A stretch of 64,000 nucleotides of DNA, taken from Rhina ancylostomus (taxonomy: Eukaryota). The notes under the pieces were generated by a model, which was not told the origin of the DNA, did not search any database, and saw only the letters and a list, made by a program, of their open reading frames with translations. The stretch is from NCBI GenBank assembly GCA_030265395.1, contig JARFYF010000065.1, positions 12,215,202-12,279,201 of the forward strand, given 5' to 3'. A program made the translations under genes and the position numbers. Below are positions 18,740 to 44,850 of this stretch, piece by piece. Position 1 is the first letter of the stretch; the number at the start of each line of letters is the position of its first letter.

Positions 18740-19140
18740 GGATAGGCTAAGACTTTTTCCCTGGAGCGTAGGAAACTGAGGCATGACCTTGTAGAGGTTT
18801 ATAAAATCGTGAGGGGCACATGTAAAGTGAATGGTCACAGTCTTTTTCCCAGAGTTGGGGAGTCTATAACTAGAAGGCCAAGGTTTAAGGTGAGAGGGGG
18901 AAGATTTCCAAGAGACCTGAGGGGCAACTTTTTCTCACAGAAGGTGATAGGTATATGGAATGAGCTGCCAAAGGAAGTGGTAGAGATGAGTACAATTACA
19001 GTGTTTAAAAGACATTTAAATGGGTACATGTTTAAGAAAGGTTTAGAGGCCAAACTCAAGCAAATGCGACTAGCTTAGGTAGACAACTTGGTCAGCATGT
19101 ACGAGGTGGGCTGAAGGGCCTGTTTCCGTGCTGTGATAAC
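18740..19140 (+). mobile_element. CR1 LINE 3' end
   Basis: RFKVRGGRF..DLRGNFFSQKVIGIWNELP..VVE...FKRHL is a typical CR1 ORF2 C-terminus. Confidence 0.88.
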
Positions 19141-21685: not shown

Positions 21686-22978
21686 GTAAGAGTATAAATC
21701 TCTGGCTTATAAGTGCACATAGCCTCTCCCATGGTACAAATGAGAATGATCAATATGTTCTGGACTTATTTACTTAAAGTGAATTTCAAGAGTCTGTGAG
21801 AGGCTCATGTGAGCAGTTGTGCTGTTTTCCTTTAATCCTTGGAGTCCAGCTCTCATTTTGGAAAATCTGCACCACATTCTCTTCAGAGCCAATATCTTTC
21901 CCCAAGTTGTGATACCCTGAACTGGTTGCACTACCTGGGGTTTAGGCTGACCAGGGCTTTGGATACCTTGATTCCAGCATTTATCCCTGTGCTTTTATCC
22001 TTTAAAGACCAGCATTCCATTAGATATCTTCTTTGTTTTTAGAACCTGCCCATGACATTTTAGTATTTACACATCAAATTAAGTCATTTTGGACTCCACT
22101 GCTAGATTTTCCCCATTTACAAAAATATTCCCTTTAGGTCCAAACCTCATCTTCCTGCATTGAAGTCTCTTTGCTGCAGTTCTGCCTGTTCACTTCATCC
22201 CTGTAATTTAGTGCTTCCATCTGCATTGCTGACATCTCTGTCTGTCTTTGTGTCATGGACAAATTTGCATGCAAGGCTTTCTACCTGGGCCATTTATAAA
22301 TATGGTGAATGGTTGTGGCCCCAAACGTAGATTTTTGTGAGACACCAATTGGTCATGTCCTGACAAAATTAATATCTCCCCTGCATCCCAACTTCTCCTG
22401 CCATTTGGTCAGTTTCCCAGCCAGGTCAATAAGTTGGCTTCAATGAGCGACTTTATAAGGGACCTTTATCCATGCTTTCTGGAAGTGCGTATGCATCCAC
22501 AAACATTACCTTTCTCTCGTTTTAGTCACCCCTTCTCAAAATGTTATCACACTTGTCTGACAAGACTTGCACTTTACAAATCCATTCTGGCTGTCTCTGA
22601 CCAAGATTTTCAGGCATTCTATCATTAGATTTCGATAATTTCCAAACTTTGGGTTGACTGATGTATTTCCTTGTTTTGTCCCCACCCCTGCTTCACCTTT
22701 CTTAAGTAGCAGTGTGACATTCACAATTTTTCAATCTGAAGTAACAGTTCATGAATCTAGAGAACCTACCTACTTCCTTCAGAACAGTAGAATAGAAACC
22801 ATGGAGGATTGTTTGAAACATTTGTTACCATTTGTCCTTTATTCGTCTCTGGAATATTTTGCTTAATTTTCTTGGGATGTCTGGCTTGTTCCTCACTTTA
22901 CTTTAAGCCTGCCATTTTCTTATTTTCTTTTGACAGTTTGATGGTGAATAAAGTTCTTTTCTTTTTTTTAACCTCCAG

Positions 22979-23116
22979 GTTTATCAGCTGATGAACAAGT
23001 GTTGGGAATCTGACCCAGCTCGGCGACCCAAATTTCAGGAGTTGTCTCCAATATTTCAGAAGCTGTATGAACGATACAAAAAGATTGAAACTTCAGGCAT
23101 TCTGCAGAAGTATTAA
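22979..23116 (+). CDS. TYK2: TYK2 last coding exon (VYQLMNKCWESDPARRPKFQELSPIFQKLYERYKKIETSGILQKY*)
   Basis: ctccag acceptor, phase 0, CW..RP.F subdomain XI, TAA at 23114-23116. Confidence 0.93.
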   Translation, partial: VYQLMNKCWESDPARRPKFQELSPIFQKLYERYKKIETSGILQKY

Positions 23117-24531
23117 ACACCTAAAAGCTTCCAACCAACCTCATCTTTCTTTATTACTGCCCCGCTGCTATCCCGATCTCCTACAGNNNNNNNNNNTTCC
23201 CAACAGAGTTGCCGACTGTTGCAACAGCACCAAAAGTGGTAGCCATATTATGAACAGCAAGCTCCCATAAATGGTATTGTTTGCTTTTGGTGTTTGACCA
23301 TGGCTACATGTTGACCAGGATACTGACAGAGCACCCTGGAACTCTTCAAATAGTGCCGAAACAGGGAGGCAAGGCCTCGATATTGTGTCTCAGTTGGAAG
23401 ATATGAATAGCACTGGTCGCGTCTTTAACTGTGGAATCTCATTTGGATCATTGCTGTTCAGTGGAGATTTTGGTGAATTGTGGCCAAGAAGTGCAACTGC
23501 AGTAAAGACTTCTGCTGAAGTTCAACATTTTTTCTTAACTCCTTCCAAACATTCGGAATGGGGGTGTGAACTTGACCTGAAATCAGGATAATCAAGTATA
23601 CAGTGGCACATATACTACACTTTGTTAACTTTTGTGAAGTTCACGTGCCATGGATAATTAAGTATTGGGAAATACAATTTGATTTTCCTTATGAATAATG
23701 TCTGTGAGAGCCCTAATGAAGCTTAAAAGATGCAGCTCAGTGTCTGGTGTAATCTGCTGTGTCACACAACAAAACTGATATAGCAGTGTCTATTTTCTGA
23801 ACTACGCCAAGAGTTCACTGGTGCATCTGACCCTGTTGCTTTTTAATACTGTCAATATTTGTGTTATACCAAATGCTAATAGACCTATATACTTTGTTTT
23901 TTGAGTTATGAAATATAATGGAAACAAATTAACTTTCAAGATATAGCAAGGTTTATACTGTTGGGAAATGAAAATCACCGCCATCTTCCATAATGTGTCT
24001 ATCAGCTACTAGCATTGCATGCCTCTGCATTATGTCTGCCAAACAACGTTACCTAGCATCATATCGGAGGAGAGGAATCATCACTTGTTCCCCTGCCATA
24101 GTTGTGATATAGCTGACTTTACTGAATGCTGAATCTGTTTGTCTCTTCATTGTAAAACTGTGTCCTGCTGCAGTGTGGAGTAATATCAGTGACACATCAG
24201 TACAATAGTTTCATTGTGCTAAGATCATCTGAGCTGCAAGCATACTGAAGCCAGGCAGGTAAATGCAGCATGGTCTCTCTTAACTGGAAACATAAAAGTC
24301 CCACAAGTAGAAACATGACTCAGTATCCATATAACCTGTAGAGGTATTGAGCAGACAGTATGACCAGCACCTCCTCCAGGTTTCTGGTATTCTCCCGCAC
24401 TTCTTTTACAGTATATGCATGCTGTTCCACAACCACTGTTCTGTTGGTATTCAAAGACTTCATCTTGCAATGCAACAAAATTGTGGAAAGGCACTTCATA
24501 AATCATGTTAGTATTAAACTGATAGTTACAC

Positions 24532-26066
24532 TTGCTTAATTGTGTAGTTTGCATGATGCAGCTAATGTTTATGACCGCAGTACCCACTCATGAGGAAAGT
24601 TTGCTGCAAGAGTTACTGAGCTCAATTGTGGCACAGTTAAATGACATTTTAGATGATCTTGAGAGGGTTCCTCCAGTTATTGATGAATACAGCCACTGCC
24701 TGATCTACCTTTGGGAATTTTCTAAGTTTGGTTTGCAGCCTGTGCTGAGTTGTTGCCCTTGGCTGGTGCCACACAATTGGCCCTCAGCTGATGGGATTAC
24801 ACAAACTCTGGTCATTTGGGTTAGGAACATCATCAGGAGAGTGGAGCCAAGAATGGGGTTGGCACACTCTAATTCCTTCAGTTTCATCGTTGAGCTTCAA
24901 ACATTTTTCAACAGTTCCTATTTTTTTGAACCTGAGAATTTTTTTGATTCTTTGTATCAGTGCGTGGCTTTTTATCAGTTGCTCCCAGTACAGCTCAAGC
25001 TTTGAAAGTGATTTTGGATTTTTGAACAGCCTATTGAATCAAGGCTGAATGACTCTGTCAGTCCCCAGGCCCCTGAGCCAATTGGAATTATCGGCTTCCC
25101 TCGACCAGAATGCCATGAGGTAGACAATGAATCTTGGAAAAAGTCAGATGAGGGATGTAAATATGATGGAGGGTTTGTTCTCCACTGCCCCTCTCCCCAG
25201 TGCATGCAGTAGATGATCATTTTACACCAGGCTGTGATTTATGCAGACTGCAGACTTATCAGTTTTGCCTTGTCCATGACGTGTGAAGTGATGCAATTGG
25301 GGAGAAAAAAAGCTGGAATTACCAAGCAGATATTTTGTGTTGATCTGCAACTTTTACAGTGGGGAAGGAGCACAGCTTTGGATCTCACTACTTATTATCA
25401 TGGTGACAATTTGTTCTTGCAGCAGTGACCAGTTTGTGAGAACAAGGAACTGAACTCTGCAGCAAAAAATACACCTGGAGGAAACAAGCTGATGTTTCAA
25501 GAATAATTTGCTTTTGTGTAGCAGCTCCTGTATAATAAAATGACCAAAGGTGCTTAATGGGTTTATTATAAAACAAGTCCATCACTGAATTATTGAACAG
25601 GAACTTGATTCAAGCATTTGAACTGGACAAAGAAACAGGTTTGAAAATCACCAAAGATATAGAAAAGTCAAAAAAAATCTCTTGTCATAACATGAACTTT
25701 ATGGGATCTTTGTGTAATTATCTGCACCATTATATTTGGAGATTGATTGTCAATGATGGGAATATTTGACAAGAACTTGTGGCCAATTTACTNNNNNNNA
25801 TTGTAATTATTTTAAGTTCACATTGATGGACACAGCATAAACTATTTTGGAATACTGTGTGTGGAAGGCTGGATGTGCACACACAGATTTGCACTTTGTA
25901 AATGCAATCTGGCAAAACTGTAGCCAGTGAATGATTCTACCTTTCTTTCTCTAAAGGGCTTTAATGGTAAGATTATGATCTTGTGAATGTGATTGGGGAT
26001 ATCATCATTCATGTGTTTATACCATTTGGCATATTGGATGATTTCAATAGACCTCCACTAATTTAA
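24532..26066 (+). pseudogene. Candidate decayed intronless coding sequence of unknown family
   Basis: One + frame (24532-25503) has only 4 stops in 324 codons. Further protein-like segments follow in shifted frames to TAA 26064-26066. No homologue recognised. Confidence 0.35.
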
Positions 26067-27118
26067 TCTTTTTTTTTATTGTCTTCACTCTCGTCAGCTT
26101 GTCCCTATGCCCGCACCATTTATTTATTCATGTTACGCAACTAAGTTGCATTGAAATTCATTTAAACAATGAATCGCATTAAAGCAGTGTGGTTTATATT
26201 TTTTAATGTGAACATTAATTTCTTATAAAGTACTCCCTTTTTTGAGTTCATTTTGGAAAACCAACCTCTGAGTATGTGTATTGCTTGGGGATAAACTCAG
26301 TCCCCATGTGGAGTCTTCACATTTGGCCTTGTGAAACAATGGAGGGATGTGTGTTTTATTCATTGCGGATGTGACCGGGAAGGCTGGTATTTCCTGCCGA
26401 TCTCTAATTTCCCATGGGAATGTGGTGGTTCACCACTTCTTGGAGCCCTCTGTATCCATGTGGTGCAGTTATCAGGGAAGGAGGTCAGGATTTCGACCCA
26501 TTGATATGTAAAGAAAGGCAGTAGATTCCCAGTTCAGAGTGGTGGGTGACCTGTAAAGGGTGGCATCGTGCTGCTGCCCCTGTCTTTCTAGGTTCCAGGA
26601 TGGGCAAGTCCCTGCAGTGCATCTACTGTTGCTTTTGTTGGGTTTACTCCAGATCGTGGTTTTGTGAGGAAAGAAGCAATATAGTGATGTGAGCACCTCG
26701 TGCCATGCTCTTGTCATAGCTTTCCCTAATATGTAAATCTCTTCTCAGCTCTGAGTTTTAAACCACACCTTGTACTTTGGGAAGCAATGCTATTTCACCA
26801 AAAGGTTAAAAAAACTAACTTTAGTGATAGAGGTAGAAAGAGGTTCCACATGTCTTGCCAAACACCCAATAAATGTGTGAGTGACAGTGTTAAAAGTGGA
26901 CTGCACAGCTGGGTTAGTTTGCTATGCTGCAGATTAAATTATCTTGCCAATGATTAAGGAAAATGGGTCTTGAAATTAAGAATGGATTGGATTATCTGCA
27001 GATCTTTTCCATTTTTAAGTAGAGCAAATGCCAATTCACATCATTTATCATGGAATGTTTTTATTTTATTCTGATAACCATATTGTGTTCCAGCATTGCA
27101 ATTATTCCTTCTAAAAGT

Positions 27119-29770: not shown

Positions 29771-30430
29771 TCATCAAATCTCGCGAGATTTGCCCATCGC
29801 GGAAGGGTGTTTGGAGCGTAAACTAATCAAAGCCCGCCTTACTCAGCGGTACACGTCCGTGTTGGTTTCATCTGTCCAGCCAATGACAAGCGGCGATCCT
29901 GTTGCTAATTCAAGATGGCGGCCCCCGTGTCCGTTACTTCGCCGGCCAGCGAGTTGAGGGAGAAGGGAGAGGATGAGGGGAGGGAGCAGGCGGAGGCGGA
30001 GGGAGAAGGCTGCTCGGAGGGCGAGCCGTGCTCCAGGGCCGGCCCAGAGGCCGGAGGAGAGGAAGGCGGGGAGGCGGCGGCGGCGGCGCACGGGCGGACT
30101 CCCGAGGAGATGCTGGCCGAGCTGGAGGCCGAGGAGAAGCAGCAGCGGCTGGAGCGGAGCCGCCGCGAGTTCCGCAACCGCCGCAAGATCATCATCAGGA
30201 ACCTGCCGCTGGACATCATCGCCCAGGTAAAGGGCGGCGGACGGCAGCACCGCGGTGGAGCCGCGGCCCCGGGCCTCGCCCGCCGCACGGCGGTGGCGCG
30301 CAGCCTGTTGGCCCGGATGTCAGCTGTCAATCAAAGGCCGGCCCCGGGCTCACGCTGCTGCGTCAGCGGCGGCTGCAGGGGCTGCCCCGCTCTTTGTTCC
30401 TTCCACCGGGGAGCCGGGCCTCACTGATGT
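29770..30430 (+). promoter_or_regulatory. CpG island / RAVER1 promoter with TCTCGCGAGA element (29779-29788), ETS-like CGGAAG (29800-29805), CCAAT box (29880-29884) and YY1 motif CAAGATGGCGGC over the ATG
   Basis: Abrupt high GC and CpG density against an AT-rich background; motifs read directly from the sequence. Confidence 0.88.
29915..30226 (+). CDS. RAVER1: RAVER1 exon 1 (MAAPVSVT...RLERSRREFRNRRKIIIRNLPLDIIAQ)
   Basis: Strong Kozak context aagATGG, cag/gtaaag donor; matches human MAADVSVT...FRNRRKILIRGLP. Confidence 0.94.
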
Positions 30431-33400
30431 TTCATGAGCGTTGAACACTTTAGTTTGCTGTTTCATGGAAAGTTGCACATTTGAGTGTGCTATTTCATGA
30501 AAAGCTGCACGCTTTAATAGAAGGCTAACCCTTCAATTATATCGCACAAAATATATCCCAGTTTCGAGCCATCTGTGTGACTTTTTTTTGAAGTGCTATT
30601 CTTTTGTAGGAAATGGTGCCACGGCAAGTTTCCGCAAACTAACTAGACTGTTGATGCAATTTACTTCAAGGGTAAATACTGGCTAGGGGAGGAACTTCAC
30701 ATTAGTGCAATGGGGTTATTTATGGTAGAACAAATCAGGTCTTGTTTTATGATCTTAGTAGAAAGACCCCAGTCATTTATTTGTGCCTGTACTTTTTTGC
30801 TTTCAAGTCTCTGAAGTTAGACTTGGACCCACGTTCTGATTTAGAAGGAGGCATGTGACGTAGCTGGCTACAACTCTTAAGGCACTGTGTCCAGTAGGGT
30901 TTTAAAGAAAAAGTGGGGAGAATTCTTTGGAACAGGGTTGCCTGATGGGAGACTTAATCGAGGTGCATGCAATCTGAGGGGCCTAGGTAGAGTAGGTAGG
31001 AAAAGTCTATTTCACTTAGCTGATGGATTAAAAATCTGAGGCCATAGAACCTGCTGGAAGGACCAGAAGGGAAGTGAAAAGAAGGCTTTTAGCTCTGAAG
31101 GTGGTAGTGGTTTAAGAGTATGTGAAAAGGTAGTAGGGGCAGAAAACATCACCACGTTTTAAAAAGTGCCTGGATGTGGACATTAAGAACTGTGACCTTC
31201 AGGGCTGTGGTCCAAGTGCTCTAAGATGGGTCATAGGCAAGTGTCCTCCTGGGTCATGAACTTTCTGCAATTATATGAATTCTTGAAATCAAATTTGGAA
31301 TGATGAATTTTGGCATTCTGAAGGTTATTGCTTGCTTGCTAATTGCAATGTGGAAGGAGTCCATTGAGTCCATGTGGGGTCCCAGCAGAGCAATCCAATC
31401 AGGCTCATTTCACCATCTTATTTTCCCTGCGGACCTACAGCAACTTCTTTCTTTTTCAATCTTTTTATTAATTTTCAAATTAAAGAAAGCAACTTCTATC
31501 TTTGATGTTTATCAATGCCTTTTGATTCTTTTGACACTTAACCACTTTAAGGGTGAGTGGAAACTGCAACAATCACAGGGAAAGTGCAGACAACACCCAG
31601 CGTCAGGAACTGTGACCAGGTCAGTAGTCCATTCCACTCCCACCCATGTTCAAAGATCCTATGGTTACAGAGGTGCTTCAAAGTCAGCACTGGAGAGACC
31701 AGATCTCTTGAACTTCAGCTTGGACGTGGTGTGTGGTAGAGTGGCAGAAGGCTGTTTGTGCTCTGTTTCAGTAATGTATAAACTTGATCAAATTTGCAAT
31801 TCTAGCCTATTAGTTGTACTCACGATGCTCAGCAAATGCAGGTACTATGATGGACAGTATCTAGTTGAGGGAGATTTTGAGTCTTTCACATCTGTCATCA
31901 TCATCAAGCCCCACTTGAAGATTGTGCACTTTTTTTTAAGCATTTGGTTGAACTGTAACAGGAATAGTTATCATTTCCCTCTTCCCACCCATTGTCCTAA
32001 TGCACATCAAAGTAAGTGATTTTTGTCCTTGATAATTAGTAGTTCTTGTTACTGAGCAAAACAGACCTATAGAATTACTATAGTTCTGTATTGTGCACCT
32101 TTGCTTAAAATTTGAAGCTATTCATAGGGTTGGATTTAAGTTTAGATACCAAAGGTAAAGCAGCATTTTGCCTGACTTCACCAACCCAGTCTTTGTATTT
32201 CTTAAAAAGAACTTGTTTTTGGTGTGGAGGTGATCCAATTATGGAAACTTGTTAATCTGATGCTATTTTGCCCTATTCAATATCAGGGGATCTCAAACAA
32301 CAGTATGTTACCAAGCAAATGATCACAAGTCAGCCCACAGGATTAATGAACTTAAGCAATAAATACAAGAGCATGGGGAGAATATCTGCAAGTATGCAGT
32401 CTGCTTTTTTGGATAAGATGTGAAGGATGAGATTCATTAAAGCAAATTTATAATTTGAAATTAATCTGGTGAACATTTATAGTGCGTGACAATGCTCACA
32501 AATAAGTTGGATATTAATATTGGAAAATTGTGCTCTTCATTAAACTCGTATGAGCTGGTAAGTTGTTGGATGACGATTTACACTCTCTATTGAATTAAAT
32601 ATGATTTATGAGAAAGCAATCAATTTTCTTGCTGCAATGAAATTATATTCCCTCTCCCACAGAATCCAGTGCTCTCAAATTTTGTTCAAAATCCAGTTTT
32701 ACTAGTTCTTTTTATTGCCCTTTTCCTTCGCTTTGTGATGGCTGATATAAAAATGATTGGCAGAGTCTCAGCTGTTTCATATGGGAGAAATGTTTATCAT
32801 AAATCTGAAGTTCATGAATGGTCCTTGGACAGCTAGATAGGTTTTCCTTAATTTAAAGTATGTCTTTTTTCAATTTTGAGGGAATTGGGTGTTCTTGAAA
32901 AGTCATAGGATGAGTTTAACTTGCACCTGGGAACTTGGTTGGAGCTTTTGATATCTTTTGTTTGCCTTGGGGGGTGAGACATAAATATTCAGCAAGAAAA
33001 CTTCTAAATATTCAAATTTAACAACTGTAAACTGATCCAGTTGTTAAATCTTGCTTTTCCAAAATGGTGTTCAGGTGGCGTTAAAACAATAAAAATCAAT
33101 AATTATTAAGGTTTTGCTCTCAGTGCAACATGAGTTAGCATATGTGATCTTGACTCTACACCCCTTTCCTTTCTCCCCCTAGTTTGCTAAGTTCTGTAAA
33201 GGCAAACAGTTTGTGCTTCAGGCTGCTTGTACTAAAGAGGCGGTTCTTAACTGATTAACCCACGTCCATTTCTCGGAATCAGCTTTAGTTAACTTCCAAT
33301 AGTTACTGTTTTAAATTTTGAGACTTGAACAATGAATATTAATTATTGTACAATTTAAAACTCTCCTGAATGGGTTCGCGTTAAATAGTAAGGTTCCACA

Positions 33401-42150: not shown

Positions 42151-42879
42151 CTGTCTTGTGGAAACAGTGTTGATGGTAGACTCCATTTGAAGAAGTTTGG
42201 TTTTCCCCTGTAGTCACGCAGCTCAACAACTCAAATTCTAATTCCTTGCATCTCGCTATTTTGAAATTTCAAATTGTTTCTGTTATTTTGAGTGCAGTCC
42301 TAAAGTTTGTACTTTATCGTTGGATATGCCATGACATTGCTTACAGTTGACAGACCATAGTTGTATAGCCACTGGCTCAGCGTTTCTTTAATCCCATTAT
42401 TCGGGCCAGTTCTCTCTATTGTGAAACTGTTTGAATGGAGTTTCGTCAAATGCTTTAAAAATTGTGAACTCTGGTTGGATGCTGCTGCCCATCAGTAGTT
42501 GCCTTGAAGTCTCCTTTAGCAGCTACAATCCATGTTGTGAAACTATTGCTCTGGGGTGTTAGGGAGGGTGTTCCAAATGTCTTGTGGGATTGGAGAGAAA
42601 TACGTTGGTGTTACCACATGTTAGCTGTCCATATTCTCCTTCATGGGATGGTATATTGTTTGTTGGATCTATAAAGCTTGAAATCGCCAAGGGTTCCAAT
42701 TTAGAAAATTGAACTCCTTAAACTTTTGTCACCTTTTGATTCATCTTGATCTCAGTAAATTTTATTTTTAAATTGGTATCCTCTAAATTCACTGAACATG
42801 TTGTAAATCTTTTTATGATGAATAAGTGTGGAAATTCCCTTACAAGTACAATGTATGCTAATTTCACTATTTCTGTCAG

Positions 42880-44850
42880 CTTCAAGATTCCACCACCAGA
42901 CACACATCTTCCCTTTCCTTCCCTCCCTCCCTCCCTCCCTTCAGTATTTCAAAGGGACCACNNNNNNNNNNNNNNNNNNNNNNNNNNNNNNNNNNNNNNN
43001 NNNNNNNNNNNNNNNNNNNNNNNNNNNNNNNNNNNNNNNNNNNNNNNNNNNNNNNNNNNNNTTACAATCCTGCTCTTCTGTCCCCACCAACCAATGGTGC
43101 TTTCCCACCCAACCGCAGAAGATGCAACATCTATCCTTTGACTTCTGCCCTTCCCATCATCCTGTCCTTCCAAGTGAAAAAGCAATTCACTTGCACTTCT
43201 GGTCTGATGATTAGCATTGTATTCACAACATTGTGGCTCTACATTGGAGAAACAAAGCACAAATTTGGTGATCATTTGCAGAGCACCTACATTTACTCCT
43301 CATGGATGACCCTGAGCTTCCAATTGCCTTCCACTTGAATTCTCTATCCCACATTGACCCATTTGTCTGTAGCCTCCTAGACTGTTGTGATGAGGCTCAG
43401 AATAAACTTGAGGAACAGCAACTCATCTTCATCTAGGCATATTGCAGCCTTCTGGTCTCAATATTGAACTCTATGGTGACCAGTAACTTGCTTTCTGTGC
43501 CTGTATCAGAACAGCCATTTCTGCTGTAAGTCACCTATCTGTGATATTGGCTCAGTTTTCCTCCGATCTGCTGTGTGTGTCCTACAGCCCTGTATTTTGA
43601 AATTCTTTATGCTCCATTGCTTGTATTCTTGCTCTCAAATTGCCTCCATTAACTGAATGAAAAACACTGGTGCTGGAGGAACTCAGCAGGCCAGGCAGCA
43701 TCCGTGGAGAAAAGTAGGCGGTCAATGTTTTGGGTCAGGACCCTTCAGGACTGAAGATAGGAAAAGGGGAAACACAATGTATAGGAGGGAAAAGCAGAGC
43801 AGTGATAGGTGGACAAAAGAGGGGAGACGGGGTGGGCACAGGGTGGTGATTGGTAGATGCAGGTAAGAGATAGTGATAGGCAGGTATGGGGGAGGAGGGG
43901 AGAGCAGATCCACTGGGGGATGGGTCAAAGGTAAGGAGAGAAACAGGAGAATAAAGAGAGGTTAGGAAAGGGAAGAAGCAGCATTGGAGAGCGTTGGGGG
44001 TTACTTAAAATGGGAGAATTCAATGTTCATGCTGTTAGGCTGCAAGGTTCCAAGACGGAAAATGAGGTGCTGTTCCTCCCGTTTGCACTTGGAATTCTCC
44101 TGGCAGTGAAGGAGGCCAAGGACTGACATCCTGCTCCCACCCTGGGAATTTTCCACTGGCCCTGCCATGGCTACAACACCTGCCCCAACACCACCTCCAT
44201 CCAGGGATCCAAGCAGTCCTTTCAGGTGAGACGGAGATTCGCCTGCACCCCCCTTAATATCATATTCTGCATTCGGTGCTCCAAACGTGGCCTCCTCTAT
44301 ATTGGTGAGACCAAACGCAGACTAGGTGACCATTTTGCAGAACACCTGCGCTCTGTCCGTAACCGTGATCTGCATTCTCCCCACTGCCAGTTACTTCAAC
44401 TCCCTCTCCCACGCTATCACTGATGACAGTCCTCAGTCGACTCCACTGCCAGGAGAATTCCAAGNNNNNNNNNNNNNNNNNNNNNNNNNNNNNNNNNNNN
44501 NNNNNNNNNNNNNNNNNNNNNNNNNNNNNNNNNNNNNNNNNNNNNNNNNNNNNNNNNNNNNNNNNNNNNNNNNNNNNNNNNNGCATCTTCAGTCCTTTGT
44601 TTCTCTGCTCCTTAACTCGTTGATTGGATGGTCTCTACAGTTTATCCCCATAGAAACCCGGTTATACCCTATTGCAGATGTTTCATTCATCTTATCCATC
44701 CTTCTCCCACCTTCCCTATACATTGTTTTCTCTCCTTCCAAGTTCTGATAAAGAGTTTTCAACCTGAAATAATAACTCTGATCTTTCTGTCTAAGCTACT
44801 GCATGCTTTCAGCTTGTCTCTTTTTCTTCAGATTTCCAGCATCTGCAGTT
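42880..44850. mobile_element. Cluster of Penelope-like elements with GIY-YIG endonuclease remnants and an inverted arrangement
   Basis: NIIFCIRCSKRGLLYIGETKRRLGDHFAEHLRSVR (44226-) and LYIGETKHKFGDH (43240-); perfect 21-bp inverted repeat 44088-44108 / 44444-44464. Confidence 0.82.

What the first reader, a model, noticed from the sequence alone, without database searches (positions are those of the whole stretch)
24532..26066. Unidentified decayed intronless gene between TYK2 and RAVER1
Seen: a single + frame from 24532 to 25503 has only 4 stops in 324 codons (TGA 25003, TGA 25009, TAG 25210, TGA 25426). Each is one C>T change from CGA or CAG. It reads EESLLQELLSSIVAQLNDILDDLERVPP..LIYLWEF..IGIIGFPRPECHEV..LHQAVIYADCRLISF. 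Protein-like text continues after frameshifts (ITELLNRNLIQAFELDKETG; TILEYCVWKAGCAHTDLHFVNAIWQ; DYDLVNVIGDIIIHVFIPF*). The antisense frame in the same register is also stop-poor over about 24650-25580, so the strand is not certain. I see no LINE or transposase motif. Inference: a pseudogenised gene of 500+ codons, a retrocopy, or an endogenous viral/transposon relic, possibly inside a long TYK2 3' UTR. I cannot name the family.
Basis: partly seen in the sequence, partly recalled or inferred. Interest (0 to 1): 0.72.

Follow-up and report, generated by a model that had tools for sequence, protein, structure and literature searches.

The report
Chance low-stop frame in TYK2 UTR
A stretch with few stop codons lies just behind the TYK2 gene, but it matches no known protein, is broken by frameshifts in three related species and shows no sign of selection on its protein, so it is likely ordinary non-coding tail sequence of the TYK2 message rather than a lost gene.

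Summary
The counts hold: 4 stops in 324 codons at 24532-25503 (+), and 5 in 310 on the antisense strand. But such frames are common: 0.2-0.9 per 64 kb in simulated non-coding DNA, and 17 in 400 kb of flanking genome, only 2 with a Pfam hit. No homologue was found in Pfam, PDB, 1.84 or 5.8 billion proteins, viral contigs or the own genome. Orthologous DNA of three relatives (about 2% and 5.5% diverged) breaks the frame with several indels; relative C has 8, 10 and 13 stops in 218 codons. One base that keeps the frame continuous is found only in this species. A probable RNA contig of relative C spans the stretch and fits the TYK2 last exon up to a poly(A) signal at 26868. Best reading (0.68): neutral TYK2 3' UTR with a chance low-stop frame. 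An old coding relic is not excluded (about 0.27 for both strands): mild codon periodicity and an antisense synonymous excess (family-wise P 0.02) remain unexplained.

The parts
22979..23116 (+). TYK2 last coding exon, ending at the stop codon
   Evidence: Acceptor AG ends at 22978 and the frame reads YQLMNKCWE...ILQKY*; an upstream exon's best PDB matches are TYK2, E 4e-27 against 3e-18 for JAK1
23117..26905 (+). Likely TYK2 3' UTR of about 3.8 kb (end inferred)
   Evidence: A 3968-nt contig of run X4 (relative C; RNA is the tool's guess) spans 24300-26150 in one piece; if colinear it runs from about 22972 to 26905
24532..25503 (+). The low-stop frame: 4 stops in 324 codons; stop-free from 24526 to 25005 (159 codons)
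24652..25581 (-). Same-register antisense frame, 5 stops in 310 codons (at 24784, 25039, 25144, 25222, 25354); weak synonymous excess
24939..24945 (+). T run, one base longer than in relatives B, C and D; this base keeps the two halves of the frame in register
   Evidence: one letter left out at 24939 in X2, at 24941 in X4 and X12; the X1 contig of the same organism has 0 differences and 0 gaps over 24723-25763
25286..25367 (+). Weak SNORD65-like match (30.5 bits, gathering score 41), no D box; chance or a decayed snoRNA copy
26868..26873 (+). AATAAA, candidate poly(A) signal of TYK2
   Evidence: lies about 30 nt before the projected end of the X4 contig
29915..30225 (+). Likely first coding exon of RAVER1 (end approximate), next gene downstream
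   Evidence: ORF 29909-30427; a later exon matches Raver-1 at E 1.5e-71

Best explanation
The stretch is likely neutrally evolving, non-coding 3' UTR of TYK2 in which one reading frame is stop-poor by chance, and lineage-specific indels likely put its pieces into one register only in this species. Shown: it lies 1.4-2.4 kb behind the TYK2 stop, is single-copy in the searches made, has no detectable homologue, and relatives carry frameshifting indels and extra stops in it. Inferred: it is transcribed as part of the TYK2 last exon up to the AATAAA at 26868, is not translated, and a 159-codon chance ORF (24526-25005) was joined to two mildly stop-poor pieces by a one-base gain in a T run on this species' branch and by 7- and 16-nt losses on the branch it shares with relative B.
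For: Base rate: 0.17-0.90 such frames per 64 kb in simulations; 17 in 400 kb of flank (32,625 N), of which 2 of 17 have a Pfam hit, 6 of 17 are at least 40% repeat, and 9 of 17 have neither; 6 of 17 have an amino-acid score as protein-like as this one, 5 of 17 as few antisense stops. No homologue: Pfam on all six frames of 23200-26501, PDB sequences, 0 hits in 1.84 billion representatives, 0 in the 5.8-billion set at near and longer lengths (antisense, longer only), viral contigs, own genome self-match only at E below 0.4. Broken in relatives: B has -1, -15, -1, -14; C has +2, +5, -1, +16, +2, -2, -1 inside the frame; C has 8, 10 and 13 plus-strand stops in 218 codons against 3 in 211 here. 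[quoted passage not shown] A relic old enough for 4 stops yet free of frameshifts over 972 nt has a best-case probability of 0.001-0.01 at 6-15 substitutions per indel. UTR placement.
Against: Among 119 simulated chance frames, 0 had 5 or fewer antisense stops, 2.5% had as strong a codon-position bias, 2.5% had 28 or more stops in an off frame, 8% were as protein-like, and 1.7% met two of these four; this stretch meets all four. Among the 17 real flanking frames only 1 (a true exon) has a stronger position bias and none reaches 28 off-frame stops. Amino-acid composition P 0.01 with a UTR-trained null, though 0.22 with a self-trained one. The antisense frame has 25 of 56 synonymous changes against 16.0 expected, family-wise P 0.02. 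In C and D the indel pairs (+7, -1) and (+16, +2, -2, -1) each return to the register, a 1-in-9 coincidence, although the shifted pieces hold stops. No outgroup polarises the indels. The protein libraries were not given a positive control for this animal group. X4 being RNA is a guess, and contigs cannot show start, end or strand.
Confidence: 0.68

Rival explanations
1. Decayed + strand coding relic (old retrocopy, transposon gene or viral insert of an unrecognised family) that died before the four species split and was taken into the TYK2 3' UTR.
For: Only 4 stops in 324 codons; E, D, Q and P above the local null; position bias P 0.02-0.03; 28 stops in one off frame. Two stops are shared by all four species, so neutral substitutions are what a dead gene would show.
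Against: No hit anywhere; a relic with only 4 stops should be about 80-90% identical to its source. 4 stops with no frameshift is improbable. Register depends on a base found only in this species. The downstream 'continuation' is at background stop density.
Confidence: 0.17
2. The relic is on the minus strand: an old gene antisense to TYK2, whose same-register complement happens to be open.
For: 5 stops in 310 codons (0 of 119 simulated chance frames match this); 27 of 56 substitutions at its third positions and 25 synonymous against 16.0 expected.
Against: Four of its five stops (24784, 25039, 25144, 25222) are also in relative C, which has 7 in 218 codons, so protein-level selection on these branches is not possible; composition is null-like (P 0.5); no hit in Pfam, own genome, the window's own LINE remnants or the longer-protein search.
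Confidence: 0.1
3. A live gene in this species: the 150-codon ORF from ATG 24553, or a longer protein made by stop read-through or selenocysteine.
For: In-frame ATGs at 24553, 24556, 24565, 24571; three of four stops are TGA.
Against: The closest relative (about 2% diverged) has a frameshift inside this ORF and TAA at 25009; C and D have a stop at 24802 and frameshifts; of 10 changes on this species' own branch 2 are synonymous; it lies behind another ORF in the same message.
Confidence: 0.02
4. Part of the stretch (25286-25367) is a decayed SNORD65 copy; this is compatible with the best explanation and would speak against a protein relic.
For: 30.5 bits, E 0.0026 on 7 kb; 13-nt guide, C-like, D'-like boxes; fifth of 8 matches in the genome, E 0.06; C's differences complete the C box and remove 3 nt where the model has a 3-nt insert.
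Against: Below the gathering score of 41; no D box; pairwise scores to the genome's two true SNORD65 copies (29, 30) are no better than shuffled queries on 64 kb (mean 31.9); a stronger non-host match (38.3 bits) lies in an 81-codon exon-like frame, so such scores arise by chance; a control on 70 kb gave a chance hit at E 0.0012; no flank homology to the host locus.
Confidence: 0.25

Closest known systems
Long vertebrate 3' UTR with a spurious ORF
   Same: Behind a stop codon, same strand, ends near AATAAA, neutral substitutions and many indels, no protein homologue.
   Different: Mild 3-periodicity and a stop-poor antisense frame are stronger than in most chance frames.
Processed pseudogene or retrocopy
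   Same: Intron-free, single copy, stops shared between species.
   Different: No parent in the genome or libraries, no poly(A) tract or target-site duplication seen, register not shared by relatives.
Decayed LINE, DNA transposon or endogenous viral element in a UTR
   Same: Position and neutral decay would fit.
   Different: No second copy in the genome searches or 400 kb of flank, no RT, transposase or viral match.
SNORD65 (RF00571) retrocopy
   Same: 13-nt guide and partial boxes at 25286-25367.
   Different: Below cut-off, no D box, not intronic, not closer to the genome's true copies than chance.

Membership tests
TYK2 3' UTR | Downstream of the TYK2 stop, same exon, no gene in between | tested here: met
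   Stop at 23114-23116; no Pfam hit in six frames of 23200-26501
TYK2 3' UTR | One transcript from last exon to a poly(A) signal | tested here: inconclusive
   X4 contig projects to 22972-26905 with AATAAA at 26868, but RNA is a guess, it is a relative, and contigs show no start, end or strand
TYK2 3' UTR | Stranded or long reads joining TYK2 coding exons to this stretch | not testable with these tools
   Only contigs were offered
Processed pseudogene / retrocopy | Homologous parent gene | tested here: not met
   Own genome: self only below E 0.4; libraries 0 hits. Genome search scores few candidates and spliced parents match exon by exon, so sensitivity is limited
Processed pseudogene / retrocopy | Reading frame ancestral and shared with relatives | tested here: not met
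   Frameshifts in B, C, D; 8, 10, 13 stops in C's three registers; no outgroup
Processed pseudogene / retrocopy | Poly(A) tract and target-site duplication | tested here: inconclusive
   None seen; old copies lose them
LINE or DNA transposon relic | Other copies in the genome | tested here: not met
   counts are lower bounds
LINE or DNA transposon relic | RT, endonuclease or transposase domain on either strand | tested here: not met
   Pfam six frames; no match to the window's own LINE remnant. Control caveat: Pfam also missed flanking frames that look LINE-derived by eye
Endogenous viral element | Similarity to a viral protein | tested here: inconclusive
   0 hits in 1.84 billion proteins and viral contigs for the + frame; divergent animal-virus families may be missed
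SNORD65 (RF00571) | Score over gathering cut-off 41 | tested here: not met
   30.5 bits; true copies 58.5 and 55.3
SNORD65 (RF00571) | C box, guide, D' box, terminal D box | tested here: not met
   13-nt guide and C-like box present, D box absent
Leptin (PF02024) | Sequence similarity (lead recalled from memory) | tested here: not met
   The genome's leptin lies on another contig; the window is not among 5 matches; pairwise P 0.42

The most novel reading that the evidence does not exclude
A fossil of a protein family with no detectable relative among billions of proteins (an unknown mobile element, virus or lineage-restricted gene), possibly encoded antisense to TYK2, was captured in the TYK2 3' UTR and is still intact in some deeper lineage.
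Probability: 0.15. Interest if true: 0.55.

Novelty: not a real feature. Interest (0 to 1): 0.12.

Why it matters
If the best reading holds it matters only as calibration: in this genome a frame with 4 stops in 324 codons turns up about once per 25-100 kb without any gene behind it, so such frames need comparative support. It also suggests a 3.8-kb TYK2 3' UTR. If the relic reading were true, it would date and place an unknown protein family next to an interferon-signalling kinase and give a handle for finding an intact copy.

Tried and rejected
No RNA holder listed by the run search; X4 is only guessed to be RNA. Single-sequence AlphaFold models were low-confidence (pLDDT 37.3 for the + frame; 35.9 for the antisense frame); fold searches with the + model gave no match at E 0.001 in BFVD or PDB and only generic helical bundles at Z 8 or less; these say nothing either way. 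The protein-atlas look-up gave no result, so language-model look-alikes remain untested. LINE reverse transcriptase on the antisense strand (motif likeness seen by eye): no match to the window's LINE remnant in six-frame tblastn, own genome or Pfam; one search used the wrong antisense frame and is not counted. Pogo/Tigger helix-turn-helix likeness (recalled): no Pfam hit. Leptin likeness (recalled): rejected. Second Rfam hit sR43 at 24649-24705, E 0.46: chance. No tandem array or meaningful repeat. Earlier findings of the scan: nothing. Paper searches listed nothing on this interval; supplements were not read. My first notebook entry misquoted the regional shuffle as 23 of 1000; one search gives 77 of 1000.

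Full report
Setting. The window holds the 3' part of TYK2 (best PDB matches TYK2, E 4e-27; stop at 23114-23116) and RAVER1 on the same strand (E 1.5e-71). Their neighbourhood is conserved in zebrafish (PMC3296744, passages). The genome has 2.2 Gb; I did not test which animal it is.

The observation. The + frame 24532-25503 has 4 stops in 324 codons at the stated places, and the same-register antisense frame has 5 in 310. An independent contig of the same organism has 0 differences and 0 gaps over 24723-25763 (it may be the source sample), so this is not an assembly error. The signal is mostly one 159-codon ORF, 24526-25005; the window has several other ORFs of 150 codons or more outside exons, the longest 246 codons with no Pfam hit. 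The supposed continuation after 25503 is at background stop density in all three frames.

Is it more than chance? Locally yes: 1 of 5000 shuffles. At the scale on which it was picked, no: 77 of 1000 shuffles of 7.9 kb; 0.17, 0.90 and 0.64 events per 64 kb in order-1, -3 and -5 simulations (4, 21 and 15 events in 1.5 Mb each); 0.63 in a 24-Mb order-4 simulation. In 400 kb of real flanking DNA there are 17 N-free frames with 4 or fewer stops in 324 codons; 2 of 17 have a Pfam hit, 6 of 17 are at least 40% repeat, 9 of 17 have neither (4 of these 9 are GC-rich, 0.52 or more, against about 0.43 here). Secondary features are more unusual. Among 119 simulated chance frames 8% were as protein-like in composition, 2.5% as periodic, 2.5% had 28 or more stops in an off frame and none had 5 or fewer antisense stops. 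Among the 17 real frames 6 were as protein-like, 5 had 10 or fewer antisense stops (this stretch has 10 over the exact 972 nt), 1 was more periodic and none reached 28 off-frame stops. True RAVER1 exons separate far more clearly from the same nulls (P 0 of 600 and 0.007). The amino-acid background used in these tests was recalled.

Homology. Nothing was found: Pfam on all six frames of 23200-26501, PDB sequences (best E 0.36), HMMER against 1.84 billion representatives (0 at E 0.001), the 5.8-billion set at near and longer lengths, the antisense frame at longer lengths, viral contigs. In the own genome DNA and protein queries found only the stretch itself, plus two matches at E 0.47 and 0.56; 400 kb of flank gave no blastn match below E 0.03 and no tblastn match. 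These searches have limits: few candidates are scored in the genome, no positive control for this animal group was run in the protein libraries, and Pfam missed flanking frames that look LINE-derived by eye.

Relatives. Public runs hold the orthologous DNA in organisms B (about 2% diverged), C and D (about 5.5%) (5 of 15 listed runs were laid). I counted 56 substitutions inside the frame: all 22 listed A/B differences in 24532-25503, and 27 shared C/D plus 7 C-only differences in 24690-25324; 97 rows and 37 were not displayed. C differs at 5.5% inside 24690-25790 and 5.6% outside. B keeps all four stops by the listed rows and has -1, -15, -1 and -14 indels; C has +2, +5, -1, +16, +2, -2, -1 in the frame and +11 behind it, which accounts for all 40 of its gap letters. 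C and D lack the stop at 25210 but have one at 24802; 25003 and 25009 are shared; 25426 lay beyond the displayed rows. Over 24691-25324 C has 8, 10 and 13 plus-strand stops in its three registers, against 3 here. B, C and D all lack one base of the T run at 24939-24945, so by parsimony the base that joins the halves was gained on this species' branch. [quoted passage not shown] About 4% of substitutions would make a stop here; at 6-15 substitutions per indel the best-case chance of 4 stops with no frameshift is 0.001-0.01. A relic young enough to keep its frame should be easy to identify; an old one should be in pieces.

Results against this reading. The antisense frame has 27 of 56 changes at third positions and 25 synonymous against 16.0 expected (P 0.005; family-wise over six frames 0.023, or 0.018 without 4 changes next to indels). 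I cannot explain this by selection, because four of its five stops are shared with C and indels break it; only 9 of 56 changes are in CpG-type context. It may be noise or an echo of old codon structure. In C and D two indel clusters each return to the register, but the shifted pieces contain stops.

Transcription. Run X4 (relative C; 94 million letters, 310,353 contigs, RNA by the tool's guess) has one 3968-nt contig across the stretch. Projected without further indels it starts at about 22972, next to the TYK2 last-exon acceptor at 22978, and ends at about 26905, 32 nt after AATAAA at 26868-26873. Both ends fit a terminal exon; this is an inference, since contigs show no start, end or strand.

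The snoRNA lead. Rfam gives SNORD65 at 25286-25367 (30.5 bits, cut-off 41), and C's differences move it toward the model. The true SNORD65 and SNORD49 copies sit together on another contig. Pairwise scores to them are at shuffle level and flanks do not align; the best non-host match in the genome, 38.3 bits, lies in an 81-codon exon-like frame (CEP290 by recall), where the guide simply spells Ala-Gly-Ile-Thr as it does here. I rate a real decayed copy at 0.25. Retroposed snoRNA copies are known in mammals (PMC1802619, start of abstract only).

Verdict. Most likely neutral TYK2 3' UTR with a chance low-stop frame (0.68); + strand relic 0.17; antisense relic 0.10; live gene 0.02. No family can be assigned. 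Paper searches listed nothing on this interval, and the scan's earlier findings held nothing.

Noticed in passing
window 31279-32019 +: A 246-codon stop-free frame in RAVER1 intron 1, no Pfam hit, composition and periodicity null-like: another chance ORF.
   Followed up: partly
window 1251-3279 +: Decayed L1/Tx1-like ORF2 with a YADD motif in a TYK2 intron (family label recalled).
   Followed up: partly
window 18746-19078 +, 42862-44423 +: CR1-like and Penelope/GIY-YIG-like remnants by recalled motifs.
   Followed up: no
L008 and L009 (G000:C94, about 67,332,600-67,335,000, minus strand); L011: SNORD49 and SNORD65 host cluster with two copies of each, and an inverted partial SNORD65 copy about 3.6 kb away whose flank aligns with one true copy.
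   Followed up: partly
L010 1472-1717 +: A 38.3-bit SNORD65 match lies inside an 81-codon exon-like frame (CEP290 by recall): a clear chance Rfam hit close to the cut-off.
   Followed up: partly
L019 (G000:C51:15672743-15673120 +): The genome's leptin gene, 82.9 bits, no stops.
   Followed up: no
L045 8843-9814 + and L041 6424-7395 +: A leucine-rich-repeat gene exon about 19 kb past the window's end, and a TYK2 FERM exon upstream of the window.
   Followed up: no
L048 2310-3281 +: An unexplained low-stop frame with scores much like the one studied here (4 stops, protein-like composition, 10 antisense stops, no Pfam hit).
   Followed up: no
window 24225-24587 - and 23298-23591 +: Further 120- and 97-codon open frames in the same UTR, no Pfam hit.
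   Followed up: partly
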